Below are positions 26,370-51,651 of a stretch of DNA of 64,000 nt, piece after piece; the first letter of the stretch is position 1, and each line of letters begins with the position of its first letter. Where the stretch lies: contig JARGFZ010000007.1 in NCBI GenBank assembly GCA_029210965.1, positions 27,052 through 91,051 on the forward strand. The letters run 5' to 3'. The translations under genes and the position numbers were made by a program. This stretch comes from a bacterium. GTDB lineage: Bacteria; BMS3Abin14. The notes below the pieces were generated by a model. It did no database searches. It had not been told where the DNA came from and saw nothing but the letters and a program-made list of their open reading frames with translations.

Positions 26370-26858
26370 ATGGTTAAAGGGTTAACCCCTGGATCCAGAG
26401 ACGGGTTCGGCCTCCTGGAACTGATCATCGCCATGACCATTCTGGCCATCGGCATTCTGGGGATCATGAAACTCCAGATGCAGTCAGGTTTCGGGAACGC
26501 GGCTTCCCGGCAAAACAGCGCTGCTGTGAACCTGGCCCGCTCCAAGATGGAGGAGTTAAAGAGGATCGGTGCCTACTCTGTTCAGGAAGGCGCCATCGTG
26601 GGTTTGAATGATACCGATACCACCAACGATCTGGCTGACTGGTCCACCCCCGATTTCACTGAGGGTCCTTTTAACGAGAGCGCGGATTCCACTTCCGGGG
26701 GAGATCTCTACACCAGGTCATGGAACGTGGTTCACGACTTTCCCATTGCCGGTTTCAAAACGATCCGGATCCGGGTCAGCTGGACCTCCCGGGGTGTGGA
26801 GAAACACGTGGACATGGAGACCCAGATCGGTCTCAAGGATATGGAATATTTCCAGTAG
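26370..26858 (+). CDS. pilV: Minor pilin PilV (prepilin)
   Basis: The start is placed at 'MVKGLTPGSRDG|FGLLELIIAMTILAIGILGIMKLQ', and the protein is about 160 aa like PilV. The upstream extension in the track ORF overlaps the previous gene. Confidence 0.7.
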   Translation: MVKGLTPGSRDGFGLLELIIAMTILAIGILGIMKLQMQSGFGNAASRQNSAAVNLARSKMEELKRIGAYSVQEGAIVGLNDTDTTNDLADWSTPDFTEGPFNESADSTSGGDLYTRSWNVVHDFPIAGFKTIRIRVSWTSRGVEKHVDMETQIGLKDMEYFQ

Positions 26859-26908
26859 GACGGATCAGATCGCTAACTGAGGCTCTCTTGTTGATGGAGG
26901 ATGGAAAG

Positions 26909-36482: not shown

Positions 36483-37064
36483 ATGGCTATCGATGCACAA
36501 ACAATCGCCAACCTTTCCCCGGCCAAAAAGATCCTTCTGGTGCTGGTATCCGTAGTCCTGGTTTTCGGGCTTTACTGGCAGCTGGCCTATAAAGGGAAGG
36601 CAAGAACGATCGACAGGCTCAGGAACGACCTGAGCAATAAACAGGCCAAACTCAATGAAAATGAGGCCATTGCCAGAAACCTCCCGAGGTTCAAGGAGGA
36701 GGTCCAGAAACTTAACCAGCAGTTGGGCAAGGTCGTTCAGGAACTGCCAAACAAAAGGGAGATCCCCGACCTGCTGGAGAAGATCAGCAACCTGGGTGCT
36801 CTAAACGGCCTTGAGGTTATTTATATCAAACCGCAGAACGATGTTGATCAGGGTTTTTATGCCGAGGTTCCTATAGCGATCAAGGTAAAAGGCGGTTATC
36901 ACGAGGTAGGACTTTTCCTCGATGCACTTAGCAGGCTGCCGAGGATCATCAATGTCAGCGATATCACCATGGGCAACGCCAAGGAAGATGAGCGCAGCGG
37001 AGTTATCGTCCTGGACATCAGTGCCCTTGCCACGACTTACAGATACGTCGAGAAGGGGGGATGA
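36483..37064 (+). CDS. pilO: Type IV pilus assembly protein PilO
   Basis: The start is at 'MAIDAQTIANLSPAKKILLVLVSVVLVFGLY', with GGGAGG upstream. It has a single TM segment, a coiled coil and a PilO core. Confidence 0.8.
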   Translation: MAIDAQTIANLSPAKKILLVLVSVVLVFGLYWQLAYKGKARTIDRLRNDLSNKQAKLNENEAIARNLPRFKEEVQKLNQQLGKVVQELPNKREIPDLLEKISNLGALNGLEVIYIKPQNDVDQGFYAEVPIAIKVKGGYHEVGLFLDALSRLPRIINVSDITMGNAKEDERSGVIVLDISALATTYRYVEKGG

Positions 37065-37606
37065 TCATGAGTTTTAGGAACTTCTCACTCCCTGTCCTCC
37101 TGATTTTCCTGACAGGGGTCATGGTTGCGGGGTCAGCCTGCAGTAAAAAGGCGCCCCCATCGAAGCCGCTGGCTCCGTTAGCTGTGACGCCCAAAAAAGC
37201 GGCGCCTGCGGCAACTGCGACAGTCGCAGCTGAGGATCAGGTTTCGGCCTTTGGCTACGAAGTGTCGGGCAGAAACCCCTTTGGCTCACTCCTGAGAGTC
37301 AAGAAATTGGTGGCGGAAGGGATTCCTGAAGAGCAGTTGACACCGCTCCAGAGAATTCCGGTCACTGATATGAAGGTGGAGAGTATCATTATCAGCAGCA
37401 GGAAATCGGTAGCCCACGTCATTACTCCCGATGGGAAGGCTCATATTATTGCGATTGGAACACTAATGGGCCGGCACAAGGGTAAGGTTGTCAGGATGAA
37501 CTCGGACGAAATTATCGTAGAGGAACAGTTTGAGGATTACCTGGGAAGGGCGTTCAAGCAGGAAACGGTTCTCAGGTTACGCGAAAAAGAAGGGGAGAAT
37601 CTGTGA
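37061..37606 (+). CDS. pilP: Type IV pilus assembly lipoprotein PilP
   Basis: The lipobox is 'MVAGSAC|SKK'. A Pro/Ala-rich linker precedes a C-terminal beta-domain. Confidence 0.8.
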   Translation: MIMSFRNFSLPVLLIFLTGVMVAGSACSKKAPPSKPLAPLAVTPKKAAPAATATVAAEDQVSAFGYEVSGRNPFGSLLRVKKLVAEGIPEEQLTPLQRIPVTDMKVESIIISSRKSVAHVITPDGKAHIIAIGTLMGRHKGKVVRMNSDEIIVEEQFEDYLGRAFKQETVLRLREKEGENL

Positions 37607-40431
37607 TGAAGCGTTTTATCGCAAAACTGCCGTGGGTTCTTCTGGCGGTCTTCGCCCTGGTCGCAAGCGGGTGTGCTGCTCCCAAGAGCCAGATGCGCTC
37701 CTCCGTGGAAGAAGCAGCCTTGGCCAGTGTCACCTCGGTGACAGGTGAGGAACTGCCGGACAGGGTTCGACTGAACATTGAGGGTACGGCAACCCTCGCT
37801 TACACGGTGTTCAGACTTTCAGAACCGTTGAGGCTTATCGTTGATCTGGCTGATACCGACATAACCGGTCTCGGTGAACTGATCACGGTGGACCTTGGGA
37901 ACGTTGCCACTGTCAGCCCCATCCAGTTGTACGAGGATGCCGGGCGTATCGGCCGCCTCGAAGTCTCCCTGGTGGAGTTGTGGGACTATGAAACTTCAAG
38001 GGCTGATAACACCATAATTATCGATTTCCTCAAGCCTGTTACGGTTTCGGAAGAGACCCCCCAGGCTGATGAAATGCTCCCGGCACAACCGGTCTCCGAT
38101 AAACCGCCTGTAGAAGTGGTGGAGCTGGAACTGACCCCCGGAGGGGAAACTACGGATGCCCAGGGTGAAATTATGGCAGAAGGAACCGCTGCCGCTCAGG
38201 TTCAGGAGGATCTGCCTCCGGCCGGGTTCATTAACAGTGTCCTTTTTGTAGAGGCTGGCGACGGGTTGACCGTTGAATTCGTTGCTGATGGTAGCGTTTC
38301 AGAGTACCTGACTATGGAACTTTCAGACCCGACCCGTCTTGTGCTTGACGTTCAGAATGTGGCAAAGGGGTTCGCACCAAGCAGGATCCCGGTTGAAATG
38401 GGTGGTGTAACCAATATTCGGGTGGGTGAACATTACGATCAAAACAAGCTGCGTTTCGTTTTTGACATGGAGGGTGACCAAATACCTCCCTATTTTGTGG
38501 AATCTGCGGGATCCGGGCTGGTACTGCGAATTGGCGAGGGAGTTGTCCCGGTCCAGCAGATTGAGGCCGCAGCTGCTCAGCCCGAATTCGAGCCGGAACC
38601 CGCATCCTCCTTCACCGAGGTTTCCGCCTCCGCCCAGGTGGCTATGGCCGACAAGTCTGAGGAAAGTCTCGAACCCGCGCCTGCTACTGCCGTGGCCGGA
38701 GCGGTGGCCCAATCTGATAGCGGAGTGTCCGAAATCCGGTATCGGGCCGAAGTCTCAGGCGGTGCTGTCCTGGTCATCTCGGATCCTCCCGTCGAATACG
38801 AGATCTCCCAACCGGATGCGAGCCATCTTCTCATTGATCTCAGAGATGTAGCTCTCTCCAGGGATCTGGTCAGGAGTCAGGATACCAGGGATATGGATGG
38901 GGCACTTCAATCGATGAGTTCCTATAACCCAAGGGGCGGCGGAGGCGGCAGAATAAGCCTGACCTTTATCCCAGGCACTACCTACGAGGTGGATCAGACC
39001 GGCGGGACCCTTACTGTGTCCCTGACGGCTCCTGCGGCGGTACCGATGGCCCAGTCAATCGCTCAGAAAGTCCAGCCGGAAGCAGTTGCTCTTATTCAGA
39101 CACCCGTGTCACCGGCTCTGGTGCCGGCCGCAGCTACCGCTTCTGCTACCGAGAAGATGGTGGTAGAGGACATTGCGGTCCCCAGGGAAGTGGGACCGCA
39201 ATACACAGGGGAACGGATCACCCTTGATTTTCAGAACGCCGACCTGCTCAACGTGCTGAGACTCATAGCAGAGGTTAGCGGACTCAATATTATCACGGCG
39301 GAAGGTGTGGGCGGAAAGATCAGCATGCGCATGCAGGATGTTCCATGGGACCAGGCTCTTGATATCATCCTTAAAACCAAGGGCCTGGGACAGGTTCGGG
39401 AAGGTAACGTAGTGCGAATCGCCCCGCGGGCAATCCTGGAAGGTGAAAGGATTGCTGAACTCAAAGCCAAGGAGGCTGAAGTTAAGATGGAGAACCTGAT
39501 CCTTGAGATCGTGCCAATCAGCTACTCCAAGGCCGAGGATCTGGTGAGCCAATTAAACTCTTTCCTCAGTGCCAGGGGATCCATCACAACCGACAAGAGG
39601 ACCAACTCCCTTATTGTAAAGGACATCGAGGAGAATGTTAAAAAGATCAAAGATCTGGTGGGAGAGTTGGATGTTCCAACGCCTCAGGTAAGGATCGAAG
39701 CCAGGATCGTCATCGTTGATGAGGGCTACGTGAAGAACCTCGGTATTCAGTGGGGAGGGGTCCACGACGATGGGGCCGGAACCCAGATCTTCGGTGAATC
39801 GGGTACATCCAGTACCGGTTTTTCAGGCGCTCTCGTCAACATGCCTGCATCAAACGCCAATACTGTCCTCGGGTTCACCTTTGGCAACATCAATAATTTC
39901 ACCAACTTGGACCTCAGGCTAAGTGCTCTGGAGCAGACGAACAACGGACGAATCATTTCAAGTCCGTCCCTGCTCGTCATCCAGAACGAAACGGCCAATA
40001 TTGAGGTGAACAACCCCTTCCCTGAAAACCGAACATCTACTGAGGTAAGTGATGAGGGGTCGACCACGACAACCGAAGTTTCCTTCCCGGACATATGGAC
40101 CAAACTGAAAATAACTCCCCAGGTAACGAGCAGTGATGATATCTTCATGGAGGTTCTGGTGGAGAAGGACAGCAAGGGACAGCAGGCTGTCTTTGATGAC
40201 AACATTTTCACCGGTGTGAACAAGCACAAGCTGGAAACCAAGATTATTCTGAAAAATCACGGAACGGCAGTCATCGGCGGTCTCTATACCGAGAACGAGG
40301 GGCAAAGCAACAGCAGCGTACCGTTTTTCTCCAAGATCCCTGTTCTCGGGTGGTTGTTCAAGAACAAGAACACCTCAAACAATAGAGATGAGCTTCTCAT
40401 TTTTATCAACGCCACCATCGTCGAAGGTTAA
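37603..40431 (+). CDS. pilQ: Type IV pilus secretin PilQ (942 aa) with an N-terminal lipobox and three AMIN domains
   Basis: The signal/lipobox is 'LVASGC'. Three AMIN-like repeats are present ('RLNIEGTATLAYTVFRLSEPLRLIVDLADTDI', 'LTVEFVADGSVSEYLTMELSDPTRLVLDVQNVA', 'RYRAEVSGGAVLVISDPPVEYEISQPDASHLLIDLRDVAL'). The N0/N1 domains and a C-terminal secretin domain follow ('NNGRIISSPSLLVIQNETANIEV', 'ELLIFINATIVEG'). Confidence 0.9.
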   Translation: MMKRFIAKLPWVLLAVFALVASGCAAPKSQMRSSVEEAALASVTSVTGEELPDRVRLNIEGTATLAYTVFRLSEPLRLIVDLADTDITGLGELITVDLGNVATVSPIQLYEDAGRIGRLEVSLVELWDYETSRADNTIIIDFLKPVTVSEETPQADEMLPAQPVSDKPPVEVVELELTPGGETTDAQGEIMAEGTAAAQVQEDLPPAGFINSVLFVEAGDGLTVEFVADGSVSEYLTMELSDPTRLVLDVQNVAKGFAPSRIPVEMGGVTNIRVGEHYDQNKLRFVFDMEGDQIPPYFVESAGSGLVLRIGEGVVPVQQIEAAAAQPEFEPEPASSFTEVSASAQVAMADKSEESLEPAPATAVAGAVAQSDSGVSEIRYRAEVSGGAVLVISDPPVEYEISQPDASHLLIDLRDVALSRDLVRSQDTRDMDGALQSMSSYNPRGGGGGRISLTFIPGTTYEVDQTGGTLTVSLTAPAAVPMAQSIAQKVQPEAVALIQTPVSPALVPAAATASATEKMVVEDIAVPREVGPQYTGERITLDFQNADLLNVLRLIAEVSGLNIITAEGVGGKISMRMQDVPWDQALDIILKTKGLGQVREGNVVRIAPRAILEGERIAELKAKEAEVKMENLILEIVPISYSKAEDLVSQLNSFLSARGSITTDKRTNSLIVKDIEENVKKIKDLVGELDVPTPQVRIEARIVIVDEGYVKNLGIQWGGVHDDGAGTQIFGESGTSSTGFSGALVNMPASNANTVLGFTFGNINNFTNLDLRLSALEQTNNGRIISSPSLLVIQNETANIEVNNPFPENRTSTEVSDEGSTTTTEVSFPDIWTKLKITPQVTSSDDIFMEVLVEKDSKGQQAVFDDNIFTGVNKHKLETKIILKNHGTAVIGGLYTENEGQSNSSVPFFSKIPVLGWLFKNKNTSNNRDELLIFINATIVEG

Positions 40432-41842: not shown

Positions 41843-42910
41843 GTGACTGAAACAATACATGTCGGCCTTGGAAACAGATCCTATCCGATCACCATAGGCG
41901 ATAAGGCCTGGTCAGGCCTGCTGCCCCACCTTGAAAAAAATCCTTTTACATCATCTATCACCGTCATCGATGAACGGGTGAACCGACTTTACGGTGAAAG
42001 GTTTTTCGGGCTTACGGACAAGACAGGCAAACCCTCATTCCGTTTTATTCTCCCTGAGGGCGAGCAAAGTAAATCATTCCCCTTTCTGGAATCACTCTGC
42101 AGGGACATGGCAAGGAACGGAATGGATCGCGGGTCCCTGGTATTGGCACTGGGTGGTGGTGTGGTTGGTGATCTGGCAGGTCTTGCCGCCTCCGTATATC
42201 TTCGGGGAGTCCGCCTTATCCAGCTTCCAACAACCCTGCTTTCCATGGTGGACAGCAGTGTTGGTGGAAAAACCGGGATTAACATATCCGAGGGGAAAAA
42301 CCTGATCGGAACCTTTTACCAGCCGGAAGCCGTTTTCGCTGACATATCGGTACTGGGCACTCTTGATGAGCGAGACTGGTATTCGGGCCTGGCAGAGATC
42401 CTGAAAATCGCTTTGGCGTTGGATGCGGGACTATTCGACTACCTGGAATCGGTGGGGGATCTTGGACCTTCCGGAGATCTGGATGTCACCAGGACCGTTG
42501 CTGCCGCGTGCCGGCAGAAGGCGAATGTAGTGGAGCTGGATGAAAAGGAAGCCGGCTTGCGAAAGGCCCTGAATTTTGGCCATACCCTGGGGCATGGTGT
42601 TGAAGCGTCTCTTGGGTATGGAGTTCTCAGACACGGCGAGGCGGTTCTCTTTGGGATGAGGGCAGCTCTCATCCTTTCGACCAGAATGTGTGGTCTCCCC
42701 TCCGATCAGTTTCAAAGGGCCATTAAACTTTTAGACCGGATCCCGGTCCCGGATGTGGAAATTCCCCATGATCTTAACAGGTTCATAATTAAGGACAAAA
42801 AGAGTTCCGGCAACAGAATATCTGGTGTTTTCATTAAGGAGATAGGCAAACACGAATTTGTTTCCCTTGAGGATCCATCTGTGTTGGTGGAGGCGTTGAA
42901 AGTTCCGTGA
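41843..42910 (+). CDS. aroB: 3-dehydroquinate synthase
   Basis: The start is GTG at 41843 ('MTETIHVGLGNRSYPITIG'), and the NAD-binding 'GGGVVGDLAG' is present. The track ORF uses an upstream TTG at 41813. Confidence 0.85.
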   Translation: MTETIHVGLGNRSYPITIGDKAWSGLLPHLEKNPFTSSITVIDERVNRLYGERFFGLTDKTGKPSFRFILPEGEQSKSFPFLESLCRDMARNGMDRGSLVLALGGGVVGDLAGLAASVYLRGVRLIQLPTTLLSMVDSSVGGKTGINISEGKNLIGTFYQPEAVFADISVLGTLDERDWYSGLAEILKIALALDAGLFDYLESVGDLGPSGDLDVTRTVAAACRQKANVVELDEKEAGLRKALNFGHTLGHGVEASLGYGVLRHGEAVLFGMRAALILSTRMCGLPSDQFQRAIKLLDRIPVPDVEIPHDLNRFIIKDKKSSGNRISGVFIKEIGKHEFVSLEDPSVLVEALKVP

Positions 42911-43200
42911 TTCGTGATTTGTGAATCGTGAATGGTTAGGGATGTAATATCGTGACTCGTGATTTGTAGTCGGAGAGATCAGTAATCAGTAATCAGTAAA
43001 TGGGAAGTGGTGGAAGCTGGAAAGCGGTAAGGTCTCGCTGATTCGTTGTTTTTTCGAATTACGAATCACCAATCACGGCCCTTAACCATTTGACTTGAAT
43101 TACTAAATCCCATAGCATTAAGGGATGATTGATTGAGAATTTGAAACGCTTTCATGCTCTTATTCTCAATTCGGAATGCGTAATTCGTAATAGTAATAAT
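42905..43200. repeat. Repeat-rich intergenic block of about 300 bp, with 7-bp periodic (GTGATTC / GTAATCA / CGTAATT) arrays and an embedded palindrome
   Basis: It includes 'GTGATTCGTGATTTGTGAATCGTGAATGG', 'CGTGACTCGTGATTTGTAG', 'CAGTAATCAGTAATCAGTAAATGG', 'CGAATTACGAATCACCAATCACGG' and 'GCGTAATTCGTAATAGTAATAATGCG'. The palindrome is 'TTGAGAAT...ATTCTCAA' at about 43130-43170. Confidence 0.55.
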
Positions 43201-43224
43201 GCGAAACGCAGGGAGAGGTAACCC

Positions 43225-44592
43225 ATGAGCGATGATGCTATTGAGCGCTATGAACAGATGCTGTTGGAAGACCCCCAGTCAAGGGCATTTGCTCCCCTGG
43301 CTGAGGCTCACCGCAAAACGGGACGCCTGGATGATGCGATCAATGTAGCCAGAGCAGGGCTTGAGCTGAATCCTGGTTACAGCGGCGGATTAGTCGTACT
43401 TGGCCGGGCCCTCTATGAAAAGGGGGAACTCGACAACGCGATCGAGGTTCTGCTAGAGGCGCTCAAAGACACACCGGAGAATTATCTGGGACAAAAGTTC
43501 CTTGGGAAAGTCCTTTTGGCCAAGGGTGAGAATAAGGGGGCGCTGACAGCTCTCGATGCGGCAAACCTTCTTAGTCCGGAGGATGAAGAGGTGACAAGAC
43601 TCCTTGATGAAGTGAGGAGCAAGGCTGTTACCCCACCGACCATGGACTATAATGAATATGCTGCCGATTCTGCCGAAAAGGCCCGACTCGTCACTTACGA
43701 ACAAAAACCTACAACGATAGACGGGATAGAGCTTTCTCCCCTGCCGGGTGGTGAGATCGAAGAGACGTTCACCTTCTCAGGCGGAGGCACCGCCGATCCG
43801 GCGGATTTGGCCCCTGTCGATGATATCGACGGTGAAGATATGACGGCCACTGTGATCGAGGAGGAAGAGATCGAACAGGCCTCGGACCTTGAATCCCTTG
43901 ACGAACTGGGTGCTGAGGCAGCGGCGTTTATCCGGGAGGGCGAGAGTTTTGTGGAGGAATCCCTGGAGGATCTTCCAGATGAAGCGTTATTTTCAGTGGA
44001 AGAGGAAATGGATGTGGATGTTGAGCCTGAAGAGATTTTTACCCCTTCTGCTGAACCGCCTGTAGCTGCAGCGCAAGAGGCTGCGTTCGTACCAGTATTC
44101 GCGCCTGCGCCCGAACCCGAGCCTGTTCCCGAACCCGCACCTGCGCCCGAACCTTTTCCAACGCCAGTGTCTGTGCCCGCACCCGAACACCAGCATGCGC
44201 CCCAGCCAGTGTTTGAGCCAGCGCCCGTTACCCAGCTTGCACCCGAACCTGAACCGGAAATTCGGGCGGAAATTCCGATACCGCTGGATCCGCCTTCCGG
44301 TGATGATCAGTTTTCCACCGAAACCCTGGCGGAACTTTATGCCCAGCAGGGTCTTATTGAAAAAGCGGCGAATATTTACCGTCGGATCCTGGATCAGGCG
44401 CCGGAAAATGAAGCTGTGAAATTGAAGCTCGAAACCCTGGAGGAGCAAACTCCAGTAATCGTGGGATCCGTTCAGGAGGTTAAGCCCCGTGAAGAGGGCC
44501 AAACCCAGTCCCCTCAGAAGGGTGGTAATGAGGACCCTTTGAGTATGCTGGAGCGGCTTCTTGAAAATGCGGAAAGGATAAAGGGACCATGA
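43225..44592 (+). CDS. TPR protein with a long acidic/Pro-rich linker and a C-terminal TPR-like motif resembling the FimV C-terminal domain
   Basis: There are about four N-terminal TPR repeats. A roughly 200-residue D/E-rich segment follows with (P-E-P/A-P) repeats ('PAPEPEPVPEPAPAPEPFPTPVSVPAPE'). The C-terminal 'TLAELYAQQGLIEKAANIYRRILDQAPENEAVKLKLETL' matches the pattern of the FimV C-terminus ('LDLARAYIDMGDxEGARxILxEVL...'). It has no signal peptide or TM segment. Confidence 0.6.
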   Translation: MSDDAIERYEQMLLEDPQSRAFAPLAEAHRKTGRLDDAINVARAGLELNPGYSGGLVVLGRALYEKGELDNAIEVLLEALKDTPENYLGQKFLGKVLLAKGENKGALTALDAANLLSPEDEEVTRLLDEVRSKAVTPPTMDYNEYAADSAEKARLVTYEQKPTTIDGIELSPLPGGEIEETFTFSGGGTADPADLAPVDDIDGEDMTATVIEEEEIEQASDLESLDELGAEAAAFIREGESFVEESLEDLPDEALFSVEEEMDVDVEPEEIFTPSAEPPVAAAQEAAFVPVFAPAPEPEPVPEPAPAPEPFPTPVSVPAPEHQHAPQPVFEPAPVTQLAPEPEPEIRAEIPIPLDPPSGDDQFSTETLAELYAQQGLIEKAANIYRRILDQAPENEAVKLKLETLEEQTPVIVGSVQEVKPREEGQTQSPQKGGNEDPLSMLERLLENAERIKGP

Positions 44593-44948
44593 TCTTCGAA
44601 GATGTGCTGAAAAATATCGTTGAACGTTCCGATGGGGTGCTAGGTGCGGTGATCATGGGTATGGACGGAATCTCAATAGGTGAACACCTGGTTGATCCTG
44701 GTTGCACTATCCAGACCGTCGGAATAGAGTATGCGCTTGCTATCAAGAGTATACAAAAAGCCTCCGCGTCCCTTTCTGCCGGTTTGGTTCAGGAGGTTTT
44801 TATTAACACTCAGAACAACATTTTTATTCTGAGACTTATAACCGATGATTATTTCATTGCCGTAGCCATGGAGCCTGAAGGCAACCACGGGAAGACACGT
44901 TACCTGATGCGGTTATCGGTCCCGTCTCTGTTAAAGGAATTTGAATGA
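44589..44948 (+). CDS. Roadblock/LC7-domain protein (MglB-like)
   Basis: The 119-aa protein has 'GVLGAVIMGMDGISIGEH' typical of Roadblock/LC7 proteins. Its start overlaps the stop of the TPR gene. Confidence 0.7.
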   Translation: MIFEDVLKNIVERSDGVLGAVIMGMDGISIGEHLVDPGCTIQTVGIEYALAIKSIQKASASLSAGLVQEVFINTQNNIFILRLITDDYFIAVAMEPEGNHGKTRYLMRLSVPSLLKEFE

Positions 44949-45047
44949 CCCCAGTCCCAGGTTCTGGTTCTGTTTGATAAAAACCTGCCCATAAGGGTCA
45001 AAGAATTAACTGACATCACGGCAAATCGCGAATGGGGAGGGAATTAA

Positions 45048-45608
45048 TTGATCAGTACAAACCAGTTCAAGAGAGGTATTAAGGTCGAAATCGAGGGTGA
45101 ACCGTTTTCAATTATTGAATTTCAGCACGTAAAACCTGGCAAAGGGGGGGCTTTCGTCCGCACCAAACTCAAAAGCCTTATCACTGGTAACGTTTTGGAC
45201 AGAACCTACCGGTCCGGGGAAAAGCTGAAAAGGCCCGATTTTGAAGAAAAGCAGATGCAGTATCTTTACAGGGACGAGAGCGGGTTTCATTTCATGGATA
45301 CTGGTACCTACGAGCAGGTACTCTTGACTGCCGAGGACATGGGCGATCTCCAGGATTATCTCAAAGAGGAACTCGAGGTCACTGTACAGATGTACAACGG
45401 AAAGCCCATTGGGATTGATCTGCCCATTTTTGTAGAGCTTGCCATAGTCAAGGCTGAGCCGGGTGTAAAGGGCGATACAGCCACGGGAGCAACAAAACCC
45501 GCGGAAATGGAAACGGGTGCAGTGATCTTTGTCCCCCTCTTTTTGGGAGAAGGAGACGTTGTGAAGATCGATACACGCTCAGGGGAATATATCGAACGCG
45601 TGAGATAG
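45048..45608 (+). CDS. efp: Elongation factor P
   Basis: 'MISTNQFKRGIKVEIEGEPFSIIEFQHVKPGKGGAFVRTKLKSL' is the canonical EF-P N-terminus, including the 'KPGKG' loop. Confidence 0.9.
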   Translation: MISTNQFKRGIKVEIEGEPFSIIEFQHVKPGKGGAFVRTKLKSLITGNVLDRTYRSGEKLKRPDFEEKQMQYLYRDESGFHFMDTGTYEQVLLTAEDMGDLQDYLKEELEVTVQMYNGKPIGIDLPIFVELAIVKAEPGVKGDTATGATKPAEMETGAVIFVPLFLGEGDVVKIDTRSGEYIERVR

Positions 45609-45616
45609 GAGAGAAT

Positions 45617-46108
45617 TTGATGGATATCAAGGAGATTAAGGAGATCCTGAGACTTCTGGACCGATACGGTGTTCAGGATTTTACCCTTCAGAGGGGTGAT
45701 AACAGGATTCGTGTGCGAAAGGGTGGAGTCCTTGAGGAGCCTGGCCAGGTGAGGTACCGGGAAATCCCGGTGAACGAGGTGCCGTCATCGGCAGTCTCGT
45801 CGCCTCAAGGTTACCCGGCGGCACCGCCATCTTCGTTGCCAGGAGACCAGCTTACGGTAGGTGACAATCAGTTTCTTGTTACTTCGCCCATTGTGGGAAC
45901 CTTTTACAGAGCGCCCTCGCCGGAAGAACCACCCTATGTGGAGGTTAACAGCGTCGTCACCAAGGGAGCGGTGCTCTGTATCGTTGAAGCGATGAAGATA
46001 ATGAACGAGATAGAGTGTGAGGTCACCGGGAAGATCTCAACGATTCTGGTGGAAAACGCCCAGGCCGTTGAATACGGTGAGCCTCTCTTTATCGTTGACC
46101 TGGCGTGA
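45617..46108 (+). CDS. accB: Biotin carboxyl carrier protein of acetyl-CoA carboxylase
   Basis: The biotinyl-lysine motif '[10 protein letters not shown]' is C-terminal, and the central linker is Pro/Ala-rich. Confidence 0.9.
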
Positions 46109-47457
46109 ATGCTTTGAAACTTTTTTCAAAAATACTTGTTGCCAACAGAGGCGAGATCGCTCTGAGGGTTATCCGTGCCTGCAGGGAACTTGGGATCAAG
46201 ACAGTGGCCGTTTATTCAGAAGCGGACCGGGACGCCTTACATACCCGCTTCGCGGACGAGGGGATATGTATTGGTCCGGCCAATCTGTTGCAGAGCTATT
46301 TGAACATCCCTGCCGTGATCAGCGCCGCAGAGGTGTCGGACTGTGAAGCGATCCATCCTGGATACGGATTTCTGGCAGAGAACCCGGAGTTTGCCGAGAT
46401 CTGTGAGGCCAGCGGTATTACCTTTATTGGCCCCCGATCCGAACATATTAGATTGATGGGAAATAAGATCCAGGCACGAAACCTTGCCGCGCGGGCTGGT
46501 GTTCCCATGCCGCCTGGAGGGATCGAAGGGGTTAGTGACCCGGAGGAAGCTCTTATTGCAGCCAAACAGCTCGGGTTCCCGGTTATTATCAAGGCTGCTG
46601 CCGGAGGAGGGGGACGTGGTATCCGGGTCGTTCATTCAGAAGCTTCCTTCAGAACCTCATTTTCCATGGCCCAATCTGAGGCAAGCTCTTCCTTCAACGA
46701 CCCGGAGGTATATGTAGAAAAGTTTATCGAGTCACCGCGGCATGTTGAGATCCAGATAATGGCTGATAACCAAGGCAATGTTATTCATTTGGGTGAAAGG
46801 GATTGCAGTATACAGCGACGATTCCAGAAGCTCATTGAAGAGGCCCCATCACCGGCTGTAAGCGAAGAACTGCGGGTGCAAATGGGTAAAGCGGCTGTTA
46901 ACCTGACGCGGGAGGCCGGATATGTGAATGCCGGAACGGTGGAATTTCTTTTAGACCGGGATGGAAAATTCTACTTTATGGAGATGAATACCAGGATTCA
47001 GGTCGAACACCCGGTGACCGAAATGGTCACGGGGGTTGACCTGGTTAAGGAGCAGATCAGGGTAGCGGCAGGCCACCCCCTCGGATTCAAACAGGAGGAT
47101 ATAAGGATTCAGGGTCACGCTATTGAATGCCGTATCAACGCTGAGGACCCGGTAGACTATCGGCCCTGTCCCGGGACGATCTCCTTCTACTATGCACCAG
47201 GCGGTCCAGGGATAAGGGTAGATTCCGCGGCCTTTGAAGATTACTATATCACTCCACACTACGATTCCATGATAGCCAAGCTCGTGGCCCACGGTCGTGA
47301 TCGGGAAGAGGCTGTTGCAAGGATGCAAAGAGCCCTGGAGGAGTTTGTCATCGAGGGGATAAAGACAACCATACCACTCCATCAGAGGATCCTGGCTACC
47401 ATGAAATTCAGAAAGGGTGATTACGGCACCGATTTTCTTGAAGAATTAAAGAAATAG
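46105..47457 (+). CDS. accC: Biotin carboxylase
   Basis: '[35 protein letters not shown]' is present along with the ATP-grasp motifs, and the size is 450 aa. Confidence 0.9.
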
Positions 47458-47616: not shown

Positions 47617-50430
47617 ATGTTGAAATATGAACGGGAAAATTCAAACATGGCAGATAAGGCAAAATTATTTAAGATAGCGCAAAAACACCTGTCCAAGGGG
47701 AACCTGGACAAGGCTATCAAAACCTTCCAGCAGTTGGCAGAGGTTGATCCCAACGATCAGCGGCTTATTTTGCGTCTTGCTGAAATTCTGGCCCGAGCCG
47801 GGAGGAAAAAGGAAGCCGTCGAGAACTATGAAAAGGTTGCCGCCGGATACATCAAACAGGATTTCCCTCCCAAGGCAATTGCTGTATACAGGACTATTCT
47901 TCGTCTGGACCCGGAGCTTTTTTCAGCCTACGAAAAACTGGCGGAACTCTATAAAAGCCAGGGGCTAGAGGCTGAGGCCCTGGCTATTTTCGAAAACCTT
48001 TTCAAGGTTTACGAAAGGAAGAACGACGAAGACAAACAGATAGATGTCCTCAAGCTCATGGCCGACATGGATCCCGAGAATCTGGGGTTCCAGGTCAGGT
48101 TGGGAGAGACCCTGGCCAGGAAGGGTCGGAAAAAAGAGGCTGCCGAGGCTTTGGCAAAAGCTGCAGCCACCCTCAGCCGGAGAGGATTCCACGACAGAGC
48201 TTCCCAGCTTTTCGAAAAAATCACCGCCTTGAATCCCGACAACACAGCGGTGCGAAGAGAGCTTTGTGCCCACTACCTCGAGAGCGGGAAGTATAATGAG
48301 GCCCGCACCGAGATCGAAGCAATCCTCGCGATTGAACCAGATGATCCACGGATGGTTCTCCTTTTGGGCCGAATCCTTTTCCAGTTGGGGAAAAGTGGTG
48401 AGGGAGAGGAGAAAATCTCGGAGTCGATCAAGCTTTTCCTGAAAGCCGGTGAGCTTGAATCTGTGATGAGGGAGTTTCTTTTTGTTGCCCAGTCTCATTT
48501 TAACAATGGTGAGGATTACGAGGCAGAGGCTTTTTATCGCCAGATCTTGTCAAATGTGCCAGGAGAGGTGAGGGCAATAAAAGGGCTCGTGTCGGTGGCG
48601 GAAAAGAGGAAAGATCGTGTTGGTCAGATAGACAATCTCCTTCTTCTTGGCCGGACAATGCAGCAGGCTGGAGATCGGGAGGGTGTTATAGATTCCTTCA
48701 GAAGGGTCAATGAGCTTGATCCCCTGAACGAGGAAGCCAAAGCTTATCTTGCTGGTGCTGGTCCTGTTGAACCCCCCGTTGTTCAGTTTGAAGAACAATC
48801 CATTGGTCTGGAAGGTGAGATCCAGGATGCGGATCTCGATGAAATCGAAGAGGTCGAACTTTTTGATGCTGAGGACATGGATCTGGAGGACATCAGTGAG
48901 GATGTCCTCGAAGAAGACATCGATGAAGAGATCCAGCTCATAGATGATGAGGAACCTGACAGGATTGTTCTTGATGCTGACGAGCCTCAGGTTGATTTTG
49001 GCGCAAAAGAGGTGGAGGAGGGGTTTATCCCTGAAATCGTTCTTGAAGATTACAAGGATGATTTCGAAGTGGATATCGGGGATTTTGAAACTGTGATGGA
49101 GGTCTCTGAAGTTGCCGGGGACGTTGCCGGGGAAGAGGCCGGGGGAGAAACAGAACCTGCAGGTTTTGACGAAGTGCAGGCTTCAGAATCTGTCGAACAG
49201 TTATCCGACGAGATGTCGCTTGAAGAGCTCCTCGCTGAAGCGGAAGTCTATGAAAGGTATGGCCTCAAAGAAAAGGTAGCCGAGACTCTGGAGAAAGCAA
49301 GGGTCAGGGCGCCTGGTGACCAGGAGGTACTCTCCAGGATAGCGGCCTTTGATTCGGGTACTAAAGTCCAGGGACTGTGTCCAGTCGCTGGGGATTCGGC
49401 ACAGGAACTGCCTGAAACAGAGGATCCCCATCACGACCCCTTTTCAGAAGAACTCGAAGAGGCCGACTTCTACCATTCTCAGGGACTCGACGATGAGGCT
49501 TCCAAAATTTACAAGTCTATTCTGGAGCGTGACCCTCAGCAAAACAGGGCCTTGCAAGCACTTTCCTCTATCGAGGTGAAGGGCGCACCGGACGAGCCTG
49601 GGGCGGCAGAACCTGTTGATGAAGGGCGCACAACGGCTTTGTCTGTTGACCCCGGTGTGCCGGTAGAAACAGCTCTTGAATCGCGGTTCAATCCGGATAC
49701 CGCTAAAGATGTCAAAAGTAAACTTATAGTAGAAGATTCAACTCCTGAAGGCATGAACGACTTCCTTGATATCGCTGAGGAGCTTCGCATAGAGATTGCT
49801 GAGGAGGATGCTGCGGAAGCCCGGATCGGACCTGCTGACGGGCCGGTCTCATTTGAAGAGATATTCAGCCAGTTCAAGGAAGGAATTAAGGAAACCCTGG
49901 GAGATGAGGAGTACGAAACCCACTACAACCTGGGGATCGCATACAAAGACATGGGCCTTTATGATGATGCCATCCTGGAGTTCGAGTCGGGTACCAGGGA
50001 TCCTGCTCTGGCCCAGGATAGCTTTAGCCTGATGGCTATGTGCTATGTGGAGAAAAGGGATTACGAGTCAGCGATAAACGCCATTGTTCAAGCCATTGAT
50101 ATTTCAAATGGAGGGAGCAAAACGGGGCTTTTCTTCCAACTTGGTGAGGTGAAGGAAAAACAGAACTTGTGGTCGGAGGCTATAAAGGCTTATGAGCAGG
50201 TACAATCCGATGATCCTGCCTTCCAGGGTATAGGTGAAGCTATTGAGCGTGTTAAGGCTTCCCTTTCCCGTGGGGTGATCCAGGATGAGCCTGATGACTT
50301 GTCGGATGGCGGTATGGATAATATGCTTACGGACCTGATACGGGAGGTTGAGGAAATGGCCAAAGAGTCTTCCGGCGAAACAACGGACGAACCGGGTAAA
50401 CCCAAAAAAGACAGGATATCCTATCTATAA
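47617..50430 (+). CDS. Large TPR-repeat protein (937 aa) with a central hyper-acidic region; MshN/FimV-like pilus-biogenesis accessory candidate
   Basis: There are about 10 N-terminal TPR repeats. A roughly 250-aa D/E-rich segment follows ('DADLDEIEEVELFDAEDMDLEDISEDVLEEDIDEE'). The C-terminal TPR units include 'EADFYHSQGLDDEASKIYKSILERDPQQNRAL', the same unit type as in 43225..44592. It lies immediately upstream of an ExeA/MshM-like ATPase. Confidence 0.6.
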   Translation: MLKYERENSNMADKAKLFKIAQKHLSKGNLDKAIKTFQQLAEVDPNDQRLILRLAEILARAGRKKEAVENYEKVAAGYIKQDFPPKAIAVYRTILRLDPELFSAYEKLAELYKSQGLEAEALAIFENLFKVYERKNDEDKQIDVLKLMADMDPENLGFQVRLGETLARKGRKKEAAEALAKAAATLSRRGFHDRASQLFEKITALNPDNTAVRRELCAHYLESGKYNEARTEIEAILAIEPDDPRMVLLLGRILFQLGKSGEGEEKISESIKLFLKAGELESVMREFLFVAQSHFNNGEDYEAEAFYRQILSNVPGEVRAIKGLVSVAEKRKDRVGQIDNLLLLGRTMQQAGDREGVIDSFRRVNELDPLNEEAKAYLAGAGPVEPPVVQFEEQSIGLEGEIQDADLDEIEEVELFDAEDMDLEDISEDVLEEDIDEEIQLIDDEEPDRIVLDADEPQVDFGAKEVEEGFIPEIVLEDYKDDFEVDIGDFETVMEVSEVAGDVAGEEAGGETEPAGFDEVQASESVEQLSDEMSLEELLAEAEVYERYGLKEKVAETLEKARVRAPGDQEVLSRIAAFDSGTKVQGLCPVAGDSAQELPETEDPHHDPFSEELEEADFYHSQGLDDEASKIYKSILERDPQQNRALQALSSIEVKGAPDEPGAAEPVDEGRTTALSVDPGVPVETALESRFNPDTAKDVKSKLIVEDSTPEGMNDFLDIAEELRIEIAEEDAAEARIGPADGPVSFEEIFSQFKEGIKETLGDEEYETHYNLGIAYKDMGLYDDAILEFESGTRDPALAQDSFSLMAMCYVEKRDYESAINAIVQAIDISNGGSKTGLFFQLGEVKEKQNLWSEAIKAYEQVQSDDPAFQGIGEAIERVKASLSRGVIQDEPDDLSDGGMDNMLTDLIREVEEMAKESSGETTDEPGKPKKDRISYL

Positions 50431-50592: not shown

Positions 50593-51651
50593 GTGAGCTA
50601 CCTTGATTTTTACGGGCTTCAGATAGAGCCGTTTTCCAACGCTCCAAATGAGCGGTTCTACTACAATAGCGCTCAGCACGCACGGGCTTTGACCAGGATC
50701 ATGTACGTGGCAGAGACCATGAAAGGCCTGGCTGTGGTGGTGGGCGACATAGGAACGGGGAAAACGACACTGGCCAGGAAGGTCCTGGACGGCCTGCCTT
50801 CCGAGGTTTACGAATCGGCTCTTCTGGTGATCCTGCATGCGGAGATTTCCCAGGAATGGCTGCTCAGAAGGATAGCCCAACAGCTGGGTATCGAAAACCC
50901 TGCCACCGAGAAACTCCAGATTATCGGACAACTATACCGTAAACTCCTTCATCTCCATGAAATGGGCAAAAAGGCTGTGGTCCTCATTGACGAGGCGCAG
51001 ATGCTTAATACCCGAGAACTCATGGAGGAGTTCCGGGGGCTTTTGAACCTGGAGGTGACGGCGCACAAATTGATCACTTTTATTTTTTTCGGGCTGCCGG
51101 AGGTTGAGGATACCCTGGCGCTGGATCCGCCTCTCCTGCAGAGGGTTGCCATGAAGATCAGGTTATCGACCCTCACTGACGAGGCGACAAAAGCCTACGT
51201 TGTCCACAGGATGGCTATTGCCGGCAGCAGGGAAACCATCTTTACCGATGGGGCACTGAAGCTTATTTATAAGTATTCCGACGGTTTTCCGAGAAAGATC
51301 AACGTTCTTTGCGATAATGCCCTTTTTCAGGGTTTTCTCATGCGGCAACGGGTGATCGATGAAACTATTGTCATGGAAATGGCAGCTGACCTGGGCTTTG
51401 ACGCCAGGATGGACAACCGAGCTGATATACCATCCATGGCTATTCCCGCCTCCTGGAACCCGGACGGTGTGAATGCGGAGGATGTTATTCCAGGTGAAAT
51501 GCTGGTGCAGAACTTGAAAAATCCGGTTGTCCCCGAGATCCCACTGGAAGCGGTTCCGGAACAGTTGCAGACCCAGAACGCCCAGATCACCAGCGAGGAC
51601 CTGGACCTGAAACTGGAGGAGTTTTTTGAGGATACGTTTAAGGAAAGTTGA
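50593..51651 (+). CDS. ExeA/GspA/MshM-family AAA ATPase
   Basis: The Walker A motif is 'GDIGTGKTTL' and the Walker B motif is 'VVLIDEAQML'. The N-terminal 'LDFYGLQIEPFSNAPNERFYYNSAQHARAL' is the hallmark of ExeA/MshM. Confidence 0.8.
   Translation: MSYLDFYGLQIEPFSNAPNERFYYNSAQHARALTRIMYVAETMKGLAVVVGDIGTGKTTLARKVLDGLPSEVYESALLVILHAEISQEWLLRRIAQQLGIENPATEKLQIIGQLYRKLLHLHEMGKKAVVLIDEAQMLNTRELMEEFRGLLNLEVTAHKLITFIFFGLPEVEDTLALDPPLLQRVAMKIRLSTLTDEATKAYVVHRMAIAGSRETIFTDGALKLIYKYSDGFPRKINVLCDNALFQGFLMRQRVIDETIVMEMAADLGFDARMDNRADIPSMAIPASWNPDGVNAEDVIPGEMLVQNLKNPVVPEIPLEAVPEQLQTQNAQITSEDLDLKLEEFFEDTFKES

What the first reader, a model, noticed from the sequence alone, without database searches (positions are those of the whole stretch)
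43225..44948. FimV-like TPR/acidic scaffold protein paired with a Roadblock/LC7 (MglB-like) protein next to the pil cluster
The 455-aa protein combines N-terminal TPRs, a low-complexity acidic region of about 200 aa with PEPEP repeats, and a C-terminal motif that pattern-matches the FimV C-terminal domain, but it lacks LysM, a signal peptide and TM segments. Its stop overlaps the start of a Roadblock/LC7 protein. Roadblock proteins are GAPs or partners of MglA-type small GTPases that set pilus polarity in Myxococcus. A cytoplasmic FimV-C-like scaffold coupled to a Roadblock protein may be a polarity or localisation module for the adjacent T4P machine.
Basis: inference. Interest (0 to 1): 0.55.

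Follow-up and report, generated by a model that had tools for sequence, protein, structure and literature searches.

The report
MglC polarity adaptor with TPR partner
The small Roadblock gene is an orthologue of MglC, a known cell-polarity adaptor of Myxococcus, and the acidic TPR gene overlapping it belongs to a widespread uncharacterised family linked to pilus genes, not to FimV.

Summary
Both ORFs are real: 43225-44592 (455 aa) and 44589-44948 (119 aa), joined by an ATGA stop/start overlap.

The 119-aa protein is a full-length homologue of M. xanthus MglC (PDB 7ct3, E 1.6e-19). It has a Roadblock fold (pLDDT 93) and keeps both MglC interface motifs: D26/I28 (F25 is Met) and K102/R104/R108.

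The region is syntenic with the M. xanthus pil-mglC-sgmX region: pilMNOPQ, aroC/B, TPR, mglC, efp, accB, accC, an SgmX-like TPR protein, then an AAA ATPase.

The 455-aa protein has four parts: a 3-repeat TPR domain, a 228-aa acidic Pro-rich disordered region, an isolated TPR-like motif, and a short amphipathic C-terminal helix. It is not FimV-like. TIGR03504 gives no hit even at E<=10, while a positive control scores 81 bits, and there is no LysM or TM segment.

It belongs to a large family annotated only as "TPR repeat protein". At least five divergent lineages place a member directly upstream of, and overlapping, mglC. Other lineages have the TPR gene at the same efp-accBC position without mglC.

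My best reading is a cytoplasmic scaffold made together with MglC that links the Mgl polarity module to type IV pili. No mglA lies in the window, and I could not test the rest of the genome.

The parts
43090..43118 (+). Sigma-70-like promoter candidate (TTGACT-17-TAGCAT) for the TPR-mglC pair
   Evidence: Consensus scan. It lies inside the only block of the aroB-TPR spacer that is conserved in L001 and L002, including L002, whose TPR protein is only 69% identical. Function is inferred, not shown.
43225..44592 (+). Gene for the 455-aa cytoplasmic TPR / acidic-IDR / TPR / C-helix protein (NCBI MDF1525571.1, 'tetratricopeptide repeat protein')
   Evidence: ORF; GGGAGAGG ribosome-binding site upstream; 100% identical database entry; orthologues at the same position in L001-L010 and L081.
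43225..43626 (+). N-terminal TPR domain (aa 1-134, eight helices), with the family motif DP.SRAFAPLAEA.RK.G
   Evidence: Pfam TPR hits; AF2 pLDDT 88-97; Foldseek finds only generic TPRs (CTPR, OGT, MamA); the motif is invariant in alignment A2.
43627..44310 (+). Acidic, Pro-rich intrinsically disordered region (aa 135-362)
   Evidence: 25% D/E, 16% P, net charge -53; block-mean pLDDT 37-59; length and sequence are highly variable among orthologues, and the region is nearly absent in the 280-aa Desulfuromonadales forms.
44311..44454 (+). Isolated TPR-like motif (aa 363-410: STETLAELYAQQGLIEKAANIYRRILDQAPENEAVKLKLE).
   Evidence: Pfam TPR_14 at 367-401; helices 365-408 at pLDDT ~90; conserved across the family. 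Its best matches in the window are two similar isolated motifs in the SgmX-like protein. No TIGR03504 hit.
44533..44589 (+). C-terminal amphipathic helix (aa 437-455: DPLSMLERLLENAERIKGP). The family consensus is L..LE.WL.N.ER.+R, and most orthologues have Trp where the window has Leu.
   Evidence: Helix 438-453 (block-mean pLDDT 86 over residues 441-450); conserved across lineages; helical hydrophobic moment 0.54 against a shuffle mean of 0.27.
44589..44592 (+). ATGA stop/start overlap (translational coupling)
   Evidence: Read directly. The same 4-nt overlap occurs in L001-L003, L007-L010, L016, L018 and L081; other lineages show overlaps of 8-37 nt or a gap of 0-1 nt.
44589..44948 (+). mglC orthologue (119 aa, Roadblock/LC7 fold; NCBI MDF1525572.1)
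   Evidence: phmmer against PDB finds MglC 7ct3 at E 1.6e-19 over the full length and no MglB hit at E<=10. AF2 pLDDT 93.3 with an a-b-b-a-b-b-b-a topology. The Foldseek top hit is MglC. D26-G27-I28 and K102/R104/R108 are conserved.
34836..40431 (+). Context: pilM-pilN-pilO-pilP-pilQ
   Evidence: Pfam PilM_2, PilN, PilO and PilP hits; the 942-aa ORF 37603-40431 was assigned as PilQ from its position directly after pilP and from PilQ-sized secretin homologues (Secretin/AMIN Pfam hits) at the same position in related loci, not scanned against Pfam here.
45048..47457 (+). Context: efp-accB-accC, between mglC and the SgmX-like gene as in Myxococcota
   Evidence: ORFs; synteny across 80 loci; Pfam-annotated equivalents in L081.
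47617..50430 (+). Context: 937-aa SgmX-like TPR protein (candidate MglA effector and T4P activator)
   Evidence: NCBIfam NF052243 SgmX, 210.6 bits, E 4.7e-62, over model positions 2-248 (the T4P-activating TPR1-8 region); this is below the equivalog cut-off of 1800. It sits at a conserved position after accC in Myxococcota loci. SgmX = MXAN_5766 (PMC7519303).
50593..51651 (+). Context: AAA_22 ATPase, counterpart of MXAN_5765 downstream of sgmX
   Evidence: Pfam AAA_22 at E 3e-22; conserved after the SgmX-like gene in many loci; an ATPase gene MXAN_5765 next to MXAN_5766 is reported in PMC3983030.

Best explanation
The two genes form a translationally coupled operon.

Gene 2 encodes an orthologue of MglC. 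MglC is the Roadblock-fold adaptor of the Myxococcus MglA/MglB/RomR front-rear polarity module. By analogy, this protein should be a homodimer with no GAP activity of its own. It would bind the GAP MglB through the D26/I28 surface and an acidic helical partner through the K102/R104/R108 cleft.

Gene 1 encodes a cytoplasmic scaffold with four parts: a three-repeat TPR docking domain, a long acidic Pro-rich disordered spacer, one isolated TPR-like motif of the kind also found in SgmX-like proteins, and a short amphipathic C-terminal helix.

I infer that the two proteins are made in fixed proportion and act together. The scaffold would tether or position the MglC (and hence MglB) complex relative to the type IV pilus machine or the cell pole. 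It would work alongside the SgmX-like T4P activator encoded four genes downstream.

Shown here: the identity of MglC, conservation of its interface residues, the domain architecture, the overlap, and synteny in several phyla. Inferred: physical interaction between the two proteins, polar localisation, dependence on MglA, and any effect on piliation.
For: Identity of gene 2:
- MglC homology is full length. The Foldseek top hit is 7ct3.
- The FDI-region residues D26 and I28 and the KRR residues are invariant or nearly so in the family. Their roles in M. xanthus are described in PMC10329633 and PMC4719450.

Synteny:
- The order pilMNOPQ-(aro)-X-mglC-efp-accB-accC-sgmX-like-AAA22 recurs in Myxococcota, Desulfuromonadales, Acidobacteriota-labelled MAGs and the window's own lineage.
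- It fits the M. xanthus gene numbers MXAN_5770 (mglC), 5766 (sgmX) and 5765. That the three genes in between are efp, accB and accC is inferred from Myxococcota MAG loci; no M. xanthus record was read.

Conservation of the pair:
- A TPR-family member lies directly upstream of mglC, overlapping it or 0-1 nt away, in L001-L010, L016, L018, L023/25/26/28/33/34/48/63, L081, L083, L085 and L086.
- This holds although TPR identity to the window falls to about 30-40% over only the N-terminal domain.
- The downstream 118-123-aa genes are MglC homologues (BLASTP 1e-16 to 1e-26).

Other support:
- A conserved promoter-like block lies upstream of the TPR gene.
- The SgmX-like neighbour scores 210 bits and shares the isolated TPR-like motif with the TPR protein.
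Against:
- No mglA, mglB or romR lies in the window. I could not establish that they exist in this lineage. The MglA search was swamped by Myxococcota sequences.
- Members of the TPR family with the same N-motif, mid-motif and C-helix occur without an adjacent mglC in Gemmatimonadota-like, Chitinivibrionia, Nitrospinota and other contigs. The family's core function therefore cannot depend on a neighbouring mglC.
- Myxococcota and several Acidobacteriota-labelled MAG loci have mglC without this TPR gene.
- MglC sequences from TPR-coupled and TPR-less loci show no group-specific residue that would mark a TPR-binding surface.
- The window protein has Leu where most orthologues have the conserved Trp in the C-helix.
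Confidence: 0.6

Rival explanations
1. FimV/HubP-type polar landmark. The TPR protein would be a soluble FimV-like hub whose C-terminal FimV domain recruits pilus regulators.
For: The architecture resembles the cytoplasmic part of FimV: a long acidic low-complexity region followed by a TPR-like motif. The gene lies near pil genes.
Against: TIGR03504 gives no hit on the whole protein (E<=1) or on C-terminal fragments (E<=10), while a FimV-type control scores 80.8 bits. There is no LysM hit and no TM segment. No FimV chain appears among the PDB sequence or fold hits. The motif is an ordinary TPR that also recurs in SgmX-like proteins.
Confidence: 0.05
2. Independent neighbours. The TPR protein would be a T4P-associated or housekeeping-cluster factor that does not bind MglC. 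On this view mglC was simply inserted downstream of it in some lineages, and the overlap reflects operon compaction only.
For: The TPR family sits at the same place, before (aroQ)-efp-accB-(T2SSE ATPase)-accC, in loci with no mglC, and after aroB in L092. mglC occurs without the TPR gene in Myxococcota and in Acidobacteriota-labelled MAGs. No MglC residues are specific to TPR-coupled loci.
Against: Wherever both genes occur they are immediately adjacent, on the same strand, and overlapping or 0-1 nt apart. This holds in at least five divergent lineages, although the TPR sequence has diverged to about 30-40% identity. That pattern is typical of co-translated partners.
Confidence: 0.25
3. RomR-like adaptor without a receiver domain. 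The acidic IDR and C-terminal helix of the TPR protein would dock in the basic KRR cleft of the MglC dimer, as the RomR C-terminal helix does. The TPR domain would take the place of RomR's receiver domain as the input or anchoring module.
For: RomR is a folded N-terminal domain, a long Pro-rich IDR, and an acidic C-terminal helix that binds MglC at 2.6 nM with an essential Trp (W394) (PMC12719032; PMC10329633). The TPR protein is a folded N-terminal domain, an acidic Pro-rich IDR, and a conserved C-terminal amphipathic helix with a near-invariant Trp in most orthologues. The window MglC keeps K102/R104/R108.
Against: The RomR helix, decoded from the mutagenic primers in the supplement, reads ..REVIEKIAWEVVRSW... 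It does not align in register with L..LE.WL.N.ER. The window protein has Leu in place of the Trp. The C-helix is kept in family members that have no neighbouring mglC. There it looks as much like a membrane-targeting amphipathic helix (F..WLKSLKR). Whether romR is present or absent in these genomes is unknown.
Confidence: 0.2

Closest known systems
MglC of Myxococcus xanthus (MXAN_5770; PDB 7ct3/7cy1). It belongs to the MglB_orphan1 subfamily of Roadblock/LC7 proteins.
   Same: Same length (119 vs 120 aa). Alignable end to end at 33% identity. Same fold. D26-G27-I28 and the K/R/R cleft residues are conserved. Not next to mglA. Same genomic position between pilQ and efp-accBC-sgmX.
   Different: F25 is Met here. 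The gene is preceded by, and translationally coupled to, a TPR gene, whereas Myxococcota MAG loci have a Cys-rich lipoprotein gene at that position. The host is an unnamed uncultured lineage with genomes of about 2-2.8 Mb. Binding to MglB and RomR is untested.
RomR of M. xanthus (partner of MglC)
   Same: Overall layout: a folded N-terminal domain, a long Pro-rich disordered region, and a short C-terminal helix. The window MglC retains the basic cleft that binds RomR-C.
   Different: The TPR protein has no receiver domain (no Response_reg hit). It has an extra isolated TPR motif. Its C-helix sequence does not match RomR's in register. No homology was detected.
SgmX of M. xanthus (MXAN_5766), the MglA-GTP effector that activates T4P
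   Same: Both are cytoplasmic multi-TPR proteins with acidic or Pro-rich linkers, encoded in the same supercluster. The 455-aa protein's isolated motif is most similar to the isolated motifs of the window's SgmX-like protein and of many 700-1200-aa SgmX-like proteins.
   Different: It is much shorter, with 3+1 repeats against 14. It lacks the SgmX N-terminal signature and the C-terminal ..K+RVSYL tail. NCBIfam SgmX does not hit it significantly (E 0.05 on the motif alone).
FimV / HubP / TspA polar landmark proteins (TIGR03504)
   Same: A highly acidic low-complexity region plus a TPR-like element, and association with type IV pilus genes.
   Different: No TIGR03504 domain (tested with a positive control), no LysM domain, no TM segment and no signal peptide.

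Membership tests
MglC (MglB_orphan1 subfamily, Roadblock/LC7) | Roadblock/LC7 fold (alpha-beta-beta-alpha-beta-beta-beta-alpha) | tested here: met
   AF2 pLDDT 93.3 and pTM 0.85, with exactly this topology. Foldseek against PDB returns MglC, archaeal and Streptomyces Roadblocks, and MglB, all at probability 1.00.
MglC (MglB_orphan1 subfamily, Roadblock/LC7) | Sequence closer to MglC than to MglB | tested here: met
   phmmer against PDB gives MglC 7ct3 at E 1.6e-19 over residues 2-116, and no MglB chain at E<=10. In structure-based alignments, identity is 32% to MglC and 9-12% to MglB.
MglC (MglB_orphan1 subfamily, Roadblock/LC7) | Conserved Asp next to the invariant Gly (D26-G27), and the F25/D26/I28 surface that binds MglB | tested here: met
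   The window has M25-D26-G27-I28. D26, G27 and I28 are invariant in A1 and A3. Position 25 is Met in 60% of TPR-coupled MglCs and Phe in 70% of the others. Definition from PMC4719450 and PMC10329633.
MglC (MglB_orphan1 subfamily, Roadblock/LC7) | Basic K104/R106/R110 cleft that binds the RomR C-terminal helix | tested here: met
   K102, R104 and R108 align with K104, R106 and R110.
MglC (MglB_orphan1 subfamily, Roadblock/LC7) | Orphan gene, not within four genes of mglA | tested here: met
   tblastn with M. xanthus MglA (sequence verified against PDB 6hjh) finds nothing in the window or in the 80 loci fetched around mglC homologues (+/-10 kb where the contig allowed). Pfam annotation of the window's larger ORFs shows no small GTPase.
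MglC (MglB_orphan1 subfamily, Roadblock/LC7) | Genome also encodes a group-1 MglA (and MglB) | not testable with these tools
   Only 64 kb of the genome is available. An MglA homologue search returned only the 120 best hits, all close to the Myxococcus query (87-97% identity; the named ones are Myxococcota), and none lay on this lineage's chromosomes. PMC4719450 reports that every genome with an MglB_orphan1 member encodes a group-1 MglA; applying that here is an inference.
MglC (MglB_orphan1 subfamily, Roadblock/LC7) | Direct binding to MglB and RomR, with polar localisation | not testable with these tools
   This needs biochemistry or microscopy.
Pfam PF03259 Robl_LC7 | HMM score at or above the gathering threshold (23 bits) | tested here: not met
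   16.3 bits, E 0.0083. Some close homologues carry a precomputed PF03259 hit. The fold-level test is met, so this reflects model sensitivity and is not evidence against the fold.
FimV/HubP polar landmark | C-terminal FimV domain (TIGR03504) | tested here: not met
   No hit on the full protein at E<=1 or on fragments 355-455 and 362-407 at E<=10. A FimV-type 48-mer control scores 80.8 bits, E 5e-23.
FimV/HubP polar landmark | Periplasmic LysM domain, a signal or TM segment, and inner-membrane anchoring | tested here: not met
   No LysM among the Pfam hits at E<=1. The maximum 19-residue hydropathy is 0.83. The N-terminus is MSDDAIERYEQ.
FimV/HubP polar landmark | Long, highly acidic cytoplasmic low-complexity region | tested here: met
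   Residues 135-362 are 25% D/E with net charge -53 and are disordered in the AF2 model. The feature is not specific to FimV.
RomR | N-terminal response-regulator receiver domain | tested here: not met
   No Response_reg hit; the N-terminus is TPR.
RomR | Acidic C-terminal helix with the conserved E390/K391/W394/E402 pattern | tested here: inconclusive
   A conserved C-terminal amphipathic helix exists, with Trp in most orthologues and Leu in the window. It does not align in register with RomR ..EKIAWEVVRSW...
SgmX (applies to the neighbouring gene 47617-50430) | NCBIfam NF052243 at or above the equivalog cut-off (1800 bits) | tested here: not met
   210.6 bits, E 4.7e-62, mainly over model positions 2-248. 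The synteny (accC-sgmX-AAA ATPase) is met. I call it SgmX-like, not SgmX.

The most novel reading that the evidence does not exclude
The TPR / acidic-IDR / W-helix family would be an unrecognised, ancestral component of the Mgl polarity and T4P system that Myxococcus has lost. It would act as a receiver-less RomR analogue or polar tether. Its C-terminal helix and acidic tail would load the MglC dimer, and through it MglB. Its TPR domain would dock on the pilus machine, on the SgmX-like activator or on the membrane. This would offer a candidate for the unexplained step of what anchors the RomR/MglC/MglB complex at a pole.
Probability: 0.2. Interest if true: 0.7.

Novelty: new variant of a known kind. 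Interest (0 to 1): 0.5.

Why it matters
MglC, RomR, MglB and SgmX have been studied almost only in Myxococcus xanthus. [quoted passage not shown]

This locus shows that the pil-mglC-sgmX supercluster extends well beyond Myxococcota. It also shows that in several phyla mglC is translationally coupled to a conserved scaffold protein that M. xanthus lacks at this position.

That yields a concrete candidate partner that can be tested by two-hybrid, pull-down, AlphaFold-Multimer, or deletion in a cultivable Desulfuromonadales relative. It also gives a name-worthy family to hundreds of proteins now annotated only as "tetratricopeptide repeat protein".

If the two proteins do not interact, the result is still useful. 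The Roadblock gene can be annotated as mglC, and the FimV label should be dropped.

Tried and rejected
1. FimV C-terminal domain. NCBIfam/TIGR03504 was run on the full protein and on fragments and found nothing, with a positive control working. PDB sequence and fold searches returned only generic TPRs. Rejected.

2. Finding MglA in this lineage. tblastn against the window and the 80 fetched loci was negative. A 5.8-billion-protein search with MglA was meant to recognise lineage hits by their chromosome-length fingerprint. It listed only the 120 best hits, all 87-97% identical to the Myxococcus query, so it was uninformative. The exact-match contig lookup for the window's TPR protein was not on record.

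3. Group-specific residues. I compared 25 TPR-coupled with 61 TPR-less MglCs looking for a TPR-binding surface. There was no clear discriminating position; the C-terminal ..E(L/F) tail is common to both groups.

4. RomR-C against the TPR C-helix. I decoded the RomR helix from the published mutagenic primers. There is no convincing register match, so I claim only an analogy.

5. Rfam scan of 42700-45200 found nothing meaningful.

6. Literature searches for MXAN_5771, for the chromosome accessions, and for roadblock+TPR+T4P+Geobacter found no prior description of the pair.

7. Multimer structure prediction was not possible.
Full report
**Observation**

The first gene ends ...GGA CCA TGA and the second starts at the embedded ATG, so they share the four bases ATGA. 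An AAGGG stretch lies a few bases upstream.

The 455-aa protein has the composition described.
- Pfam TPR models hit residues 3-125 and 367-401, at E 1e-14 to 1e-17 for the whole protein.
- Residues 135-362 are 25% Asp/Glu and 16% Pro, with net charge -53.
- The most hydrophobic 19-residue window scores only 0.83, so there is no membrane segment.
- There is no LysM hit.

An AlphaFold2 model built on 39 homologues gives five regions:
- eight confident helices at residues 3-134 (pLDDT >93);
- disorder from about 135 to 362;
- three confident helices at 365-408 (pLDDT ~90);
- disorder from 412 to 435;
- a final helix at 438-453 (block-mean pLDDT 86 for residues 441-450).

**The FimV claim fails its own test**

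TIGR03504 (FimV_Cterm) does not hit the protein at E<=1. It also does not hit the excised C-terminal fragments at E<=10. A FimV-type 48-residue control scores 80.8 bits in the same library.

PDB sequence and fold searches with the whole protein or its C-terminal 101 residues return only generic TPR proteins: consensus TPRs, O-GlcNAc transferase, MamA and TTC0263. The "FimV-like" motif is an ordinary isolated TPR.

**The Roadblock protein is MglC**

Pfam Robl_LC7 is below threshold (16.3 vs 23 bits). However, phmmer against PDB finds M. xanthus MglC (7ct3) at E 1.6e-19 over residues 2-116, and finds no MglB chain.

The AF2 model has pLDDT 93.3 and the alpha-beta-beta-alpha-beta-beta-beta-alpha Roadblock topology. 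Its best Foldseek hit is MglC, followed by other Roadblock proteins and MglB.

The residues that define MglC function in M. xanthus are present.
- D26 and I28 of the FDI patch, which binds MglB, are conserved; F25 is Met here.
- K102/R104/R108 correspond to K104/R106/R110, the basic cleft that binds the RomR C-terminal helix (PMC4719450 and PMC10329633).

MglC is not a GAP. It is the adaptor that links RomR to the GAP MglB, and MglA-GTP releases MglB from it (PMC10329633; PMC13408092).

**Context**

The window is one large type IV pilus region, with housekeeping genes interleaved and the ilv/leu genes at its 3' end. In order it contains:
- pilC, pilS/pilR and a pilA-like gene;
- a probable glycosylation island, then pilD;
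- a second histidine kinase with a sigma-54 response regulator;
- minor pilins, including a 1948-aa pilin-like adhesin;
- pilMNOPQ, aroC and aroB;
- the TPR gene and mglC;
- efp, accB and accC;
- a 937-aa TPR protein that hits the NCBIfam SgmX model at 210 bits over the T4P-activating N-terminal region;
- an AAA_22 ATPase, then ilv/leu genes.

This fits the M. xanthus gene numbers: mglC = MXAN_5770, three intervening genes, sgmX = MXAN_5766, and an ATPase MXAN_5765. That the three intervening genes are efp, accB and accC is inferred from Myxococcota MAG loci; no M. xanthus record was read.

I scanned one genome per species for MglC relatives and obtained 80 loci. The order pilMNOPQ-(aro)-X-mglC-efp-accB-accC-sgmX-like-AAA22 recurs in Myxococcota, Desulfuromonadales (Geopsychrobacteraceae), Acidobacteriota-labelled MAGs and the window's own lineage. 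That lineage consists of unnamed MAGs labelled only "bacterium". The closest is PFL40 at 97% MglC identity, and three others are closed chromosomes of 2.0-2.8 Mb.

**What is gene X?**

The gene upstream of mglC differs between lineages.
- In Myxococcota it is a roughly 250-aa Cys-rich lipoprotein.
- In several Acidobacteriota-labelled MAGs, pilQ abuts mglC directly.
- In the window's lineage (L001-L010, L081) it is the orthologue of the 455-aa protein, with the same 4-nt overlap.
- In Geopsychrobacteraceae and other Desulfuromonadales, and in two unclassified MAGs, it is a 258-293-aa version. This version keeps the same N-terminal motif (..DP.S..F..LAE.YRK.G..D.A), usually the same mid motif ([LM]A[ED]LY..QG....A..[IV]Y..[IL]...P.N), and the same C-terminal helix (L..L.RWL.NI..RR). 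It has a much shorter acidic linker.

Much more distant homologues were found only through the N-terminal domain: P0127, P0134 and P0142. These again sit immediately upstream of 118-123-aa genes, between pilQ and accB-accC. Those small genes are MglC homologues by BLASTP (1e-16 to 1e-26), with D-G-I and G(K/R)xR intact. The pair is therefore conserved in at least five divergent lineages, although the TPR sequence has diverged strongly.

**The TPR family is wider than the pair**

I searched 1.84 billion representative proteins with residues 355-455. There were 1800 hits at E<=1e-3, and the 150 best listed fall mainly into two classes.

1. Proteins of roughly 280-750 aa with the same three signatures. 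Where a source names them, they come from Nitrospinota, Chitinivibrionia, Thermoanaerobaculia, Gemmatimonadales and "bacterium", always as "tetratricopeptide repeat protein".
2. SgmX-like proteins of 700-1200 aa that carry several copies of the mid motif and a conserved ..K+RVSY(I/L) tail, as the window's 937-aa protein does. Within the window, the best match of the 455-aa protein to that neighbour is exactly this isolated motif.

Five class-1 members from other phyla were looked up.
- Three (Gemmatimonadota-like, an unnamed contig and Chitinivibrionia) lie upstream of (aroQ)-efp-accB-[T2SSE ATPase]-accC.
- A fourth (Gemmatimonadota-like) lies before aroQ-pepP-accB-[T2SSE ATPase]-accC.
- One lies after pilQ-aroC-aroB.
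- None of these has an mglC, and a Nitrospinota member stands alone.

The family therefore tracks the pil/aro/efp/accBC neighbourhood. mglC is a frequent but not obligatory downstream partner.

**Mechanism**

The pair has its own conserved promoter-like block, TTGACT-17-TAGCAT at 43090-43118, conserved in L001 and L002. With the translational coupling, the simplest reading is a two-protein unit.

By orthology, MglC is a dimeric adaptor with an MglB-binding face and a basic cleft for an acidic helix.

The TPR protein offers four elements: a peptide-docking TPR domain, a long acidic spacer, an SgmX-type TPR motif, and an amphipathic C-terminal helix (hydrophobic moment 0.54 vs 0.27 for shuffles).

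I propose it is a scaffold that positions MglC, and through it MglB, relative to the T4P machine, the SgmX-like activator or the pole.

One attractive sub-hypothesis is that it imitates RomR. RomR is a folded N-domain, a Pro-rich IDR, and an acidic C-helix whose W394 is essential for nanomolar binding to MglC (PMC12719032). Most orthologues of the TPR protein carry a Trp in the C-helix. There are three objections:
- the RomR helix, decoded from published primers as ..REVIEKIAWEVVRSW.., does not align in register;
- the window protein has Leu at that position;
- the helix persists in family members without a neighbouring mglC, where it looks as much like a membrane-targeting helix.

No residues distinguish TPR-coupled from TPR-less MglCs. 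Interaction, localisation and dependence on MglA all remain inferred.

**What could not be settled**

There is no mglA, mglB or romR in the window. I could not query the rest of the genome, and an MglA search returned only the 120 best hits, all close to the Myxococcus query. McLoon et al. report that all genomes with an MglC-type orphan encode a group-1 MglA. The SgmX-like neighbour points the same way. Applying either to this genome is an inference.

**Verdict**

The FimV label is wrong. The Roadblock gene is mglC. The polarity-module idea is strengthened by the synteny with sgmX.

The new element is the conserved, uncharacterised TPR-IDR partner family. I found no description of it in the searchable literature.

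I rate this a new variant of a known system, of moderate interest. It is a well-defined hypothesis for people working on bacterial polarity, but not a surprise of kind.

Noticed in passing
window 47617-50430 and 50593-51651: A 937-aa SgmX-like TPR protein (NCBIfam SgmX 210 bits over the T4P-activating region). It has two isolated acidic-flanked TPR motifs and a C-terminal tail KKDRISYL. Dozens of 700-1200-aa SgmX-like representatives share that tail (..K+RVSYI/L). It is followed by an AAA_22 ATPase equivalent to MXAN_5765. The conserved tail is unexplained.
   Followed up: partly
window 25603-34278: A minor-pilin block containing a 1948-aa protein with a prepilin N-methylation motif plus Big_7, Big_3_3 and Invasin_D3 Ig-like domains, which looks like a giant pilin-like adhesin. 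A 580-aa PilX_N protein follows it.
   Followed up: no
window 4583-22325: The pilA-like gene (4583-5083) is followed by two Wzy_C (O-antigen-ligase-like) + TPR membrane proteins. Next comes a 12-kb island of glycosyltransferases, an asparagine synthase, two PMT_2 proteins and an amine oxidase, and then pilD. This is probably a pilin glycosylation island embedded in the pil cluster.
   Followed up: no
window 1385-4449 and 22301-25458: There are two separate histidine kinase + sigma-54 response regulator pairs in the pil region. The first is PilS/PilR-type (6TM_PilS domain). The second is a HAMP kinase with an NtrC-type regulator just upstream of the minor pilins.
   Followed up: no
window 42900-43224 (aroB-TPR spacer): The spacer holds tandem heptamers (CGTGATT/CGTGAAT, and CAGTAAT x3) and 29-nt inverted arms at 42900-42928 and 43055-43083. 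These are absent from the closest relatives L001 and L002, and there is no Rfam match. It may be a small inserted repeat element or an array of operator sites upstream of the conserved promoter block.
   Followed up: partly
L087, L088, L089, L091 (loci fetched around TPR-family homologues): In Gemmatimonadota-like, Chitinivibrionia and related contigs, a PilT/PilB-type T2SSE ATPase gene is inserted between accB and accC. The TPR-family gene sits upstream of (aroQ)-efp, and there is no mglC. This is an unexplained, conserved link between acetyl-CoA carboxylase genes and pilus ATPase genes.
   Followed up: partly
L011-L080 (Myxococcota loci), immediately upstream of mglC: In Myxococcota MAG loci the slot occupied here by the TPR gene holds a roughly 250-300-aa lipoprotein with a Cys-rich C-terminus (..C.GC......C...). 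I found no characterisation of it. A few Deltaproteobacteria-labelled loci instead have a 219-260-aa gene there whose C-terminus (..YRVRVGPF..) I judged SPOR-like by eye, without a domain search.
   Followed up: no
window 8903-9415: A 170-aa ORF between the second Wzy_C/TPR gene and a family-2 glycosyltransferase has no Pfam hit.
   Followed up: no
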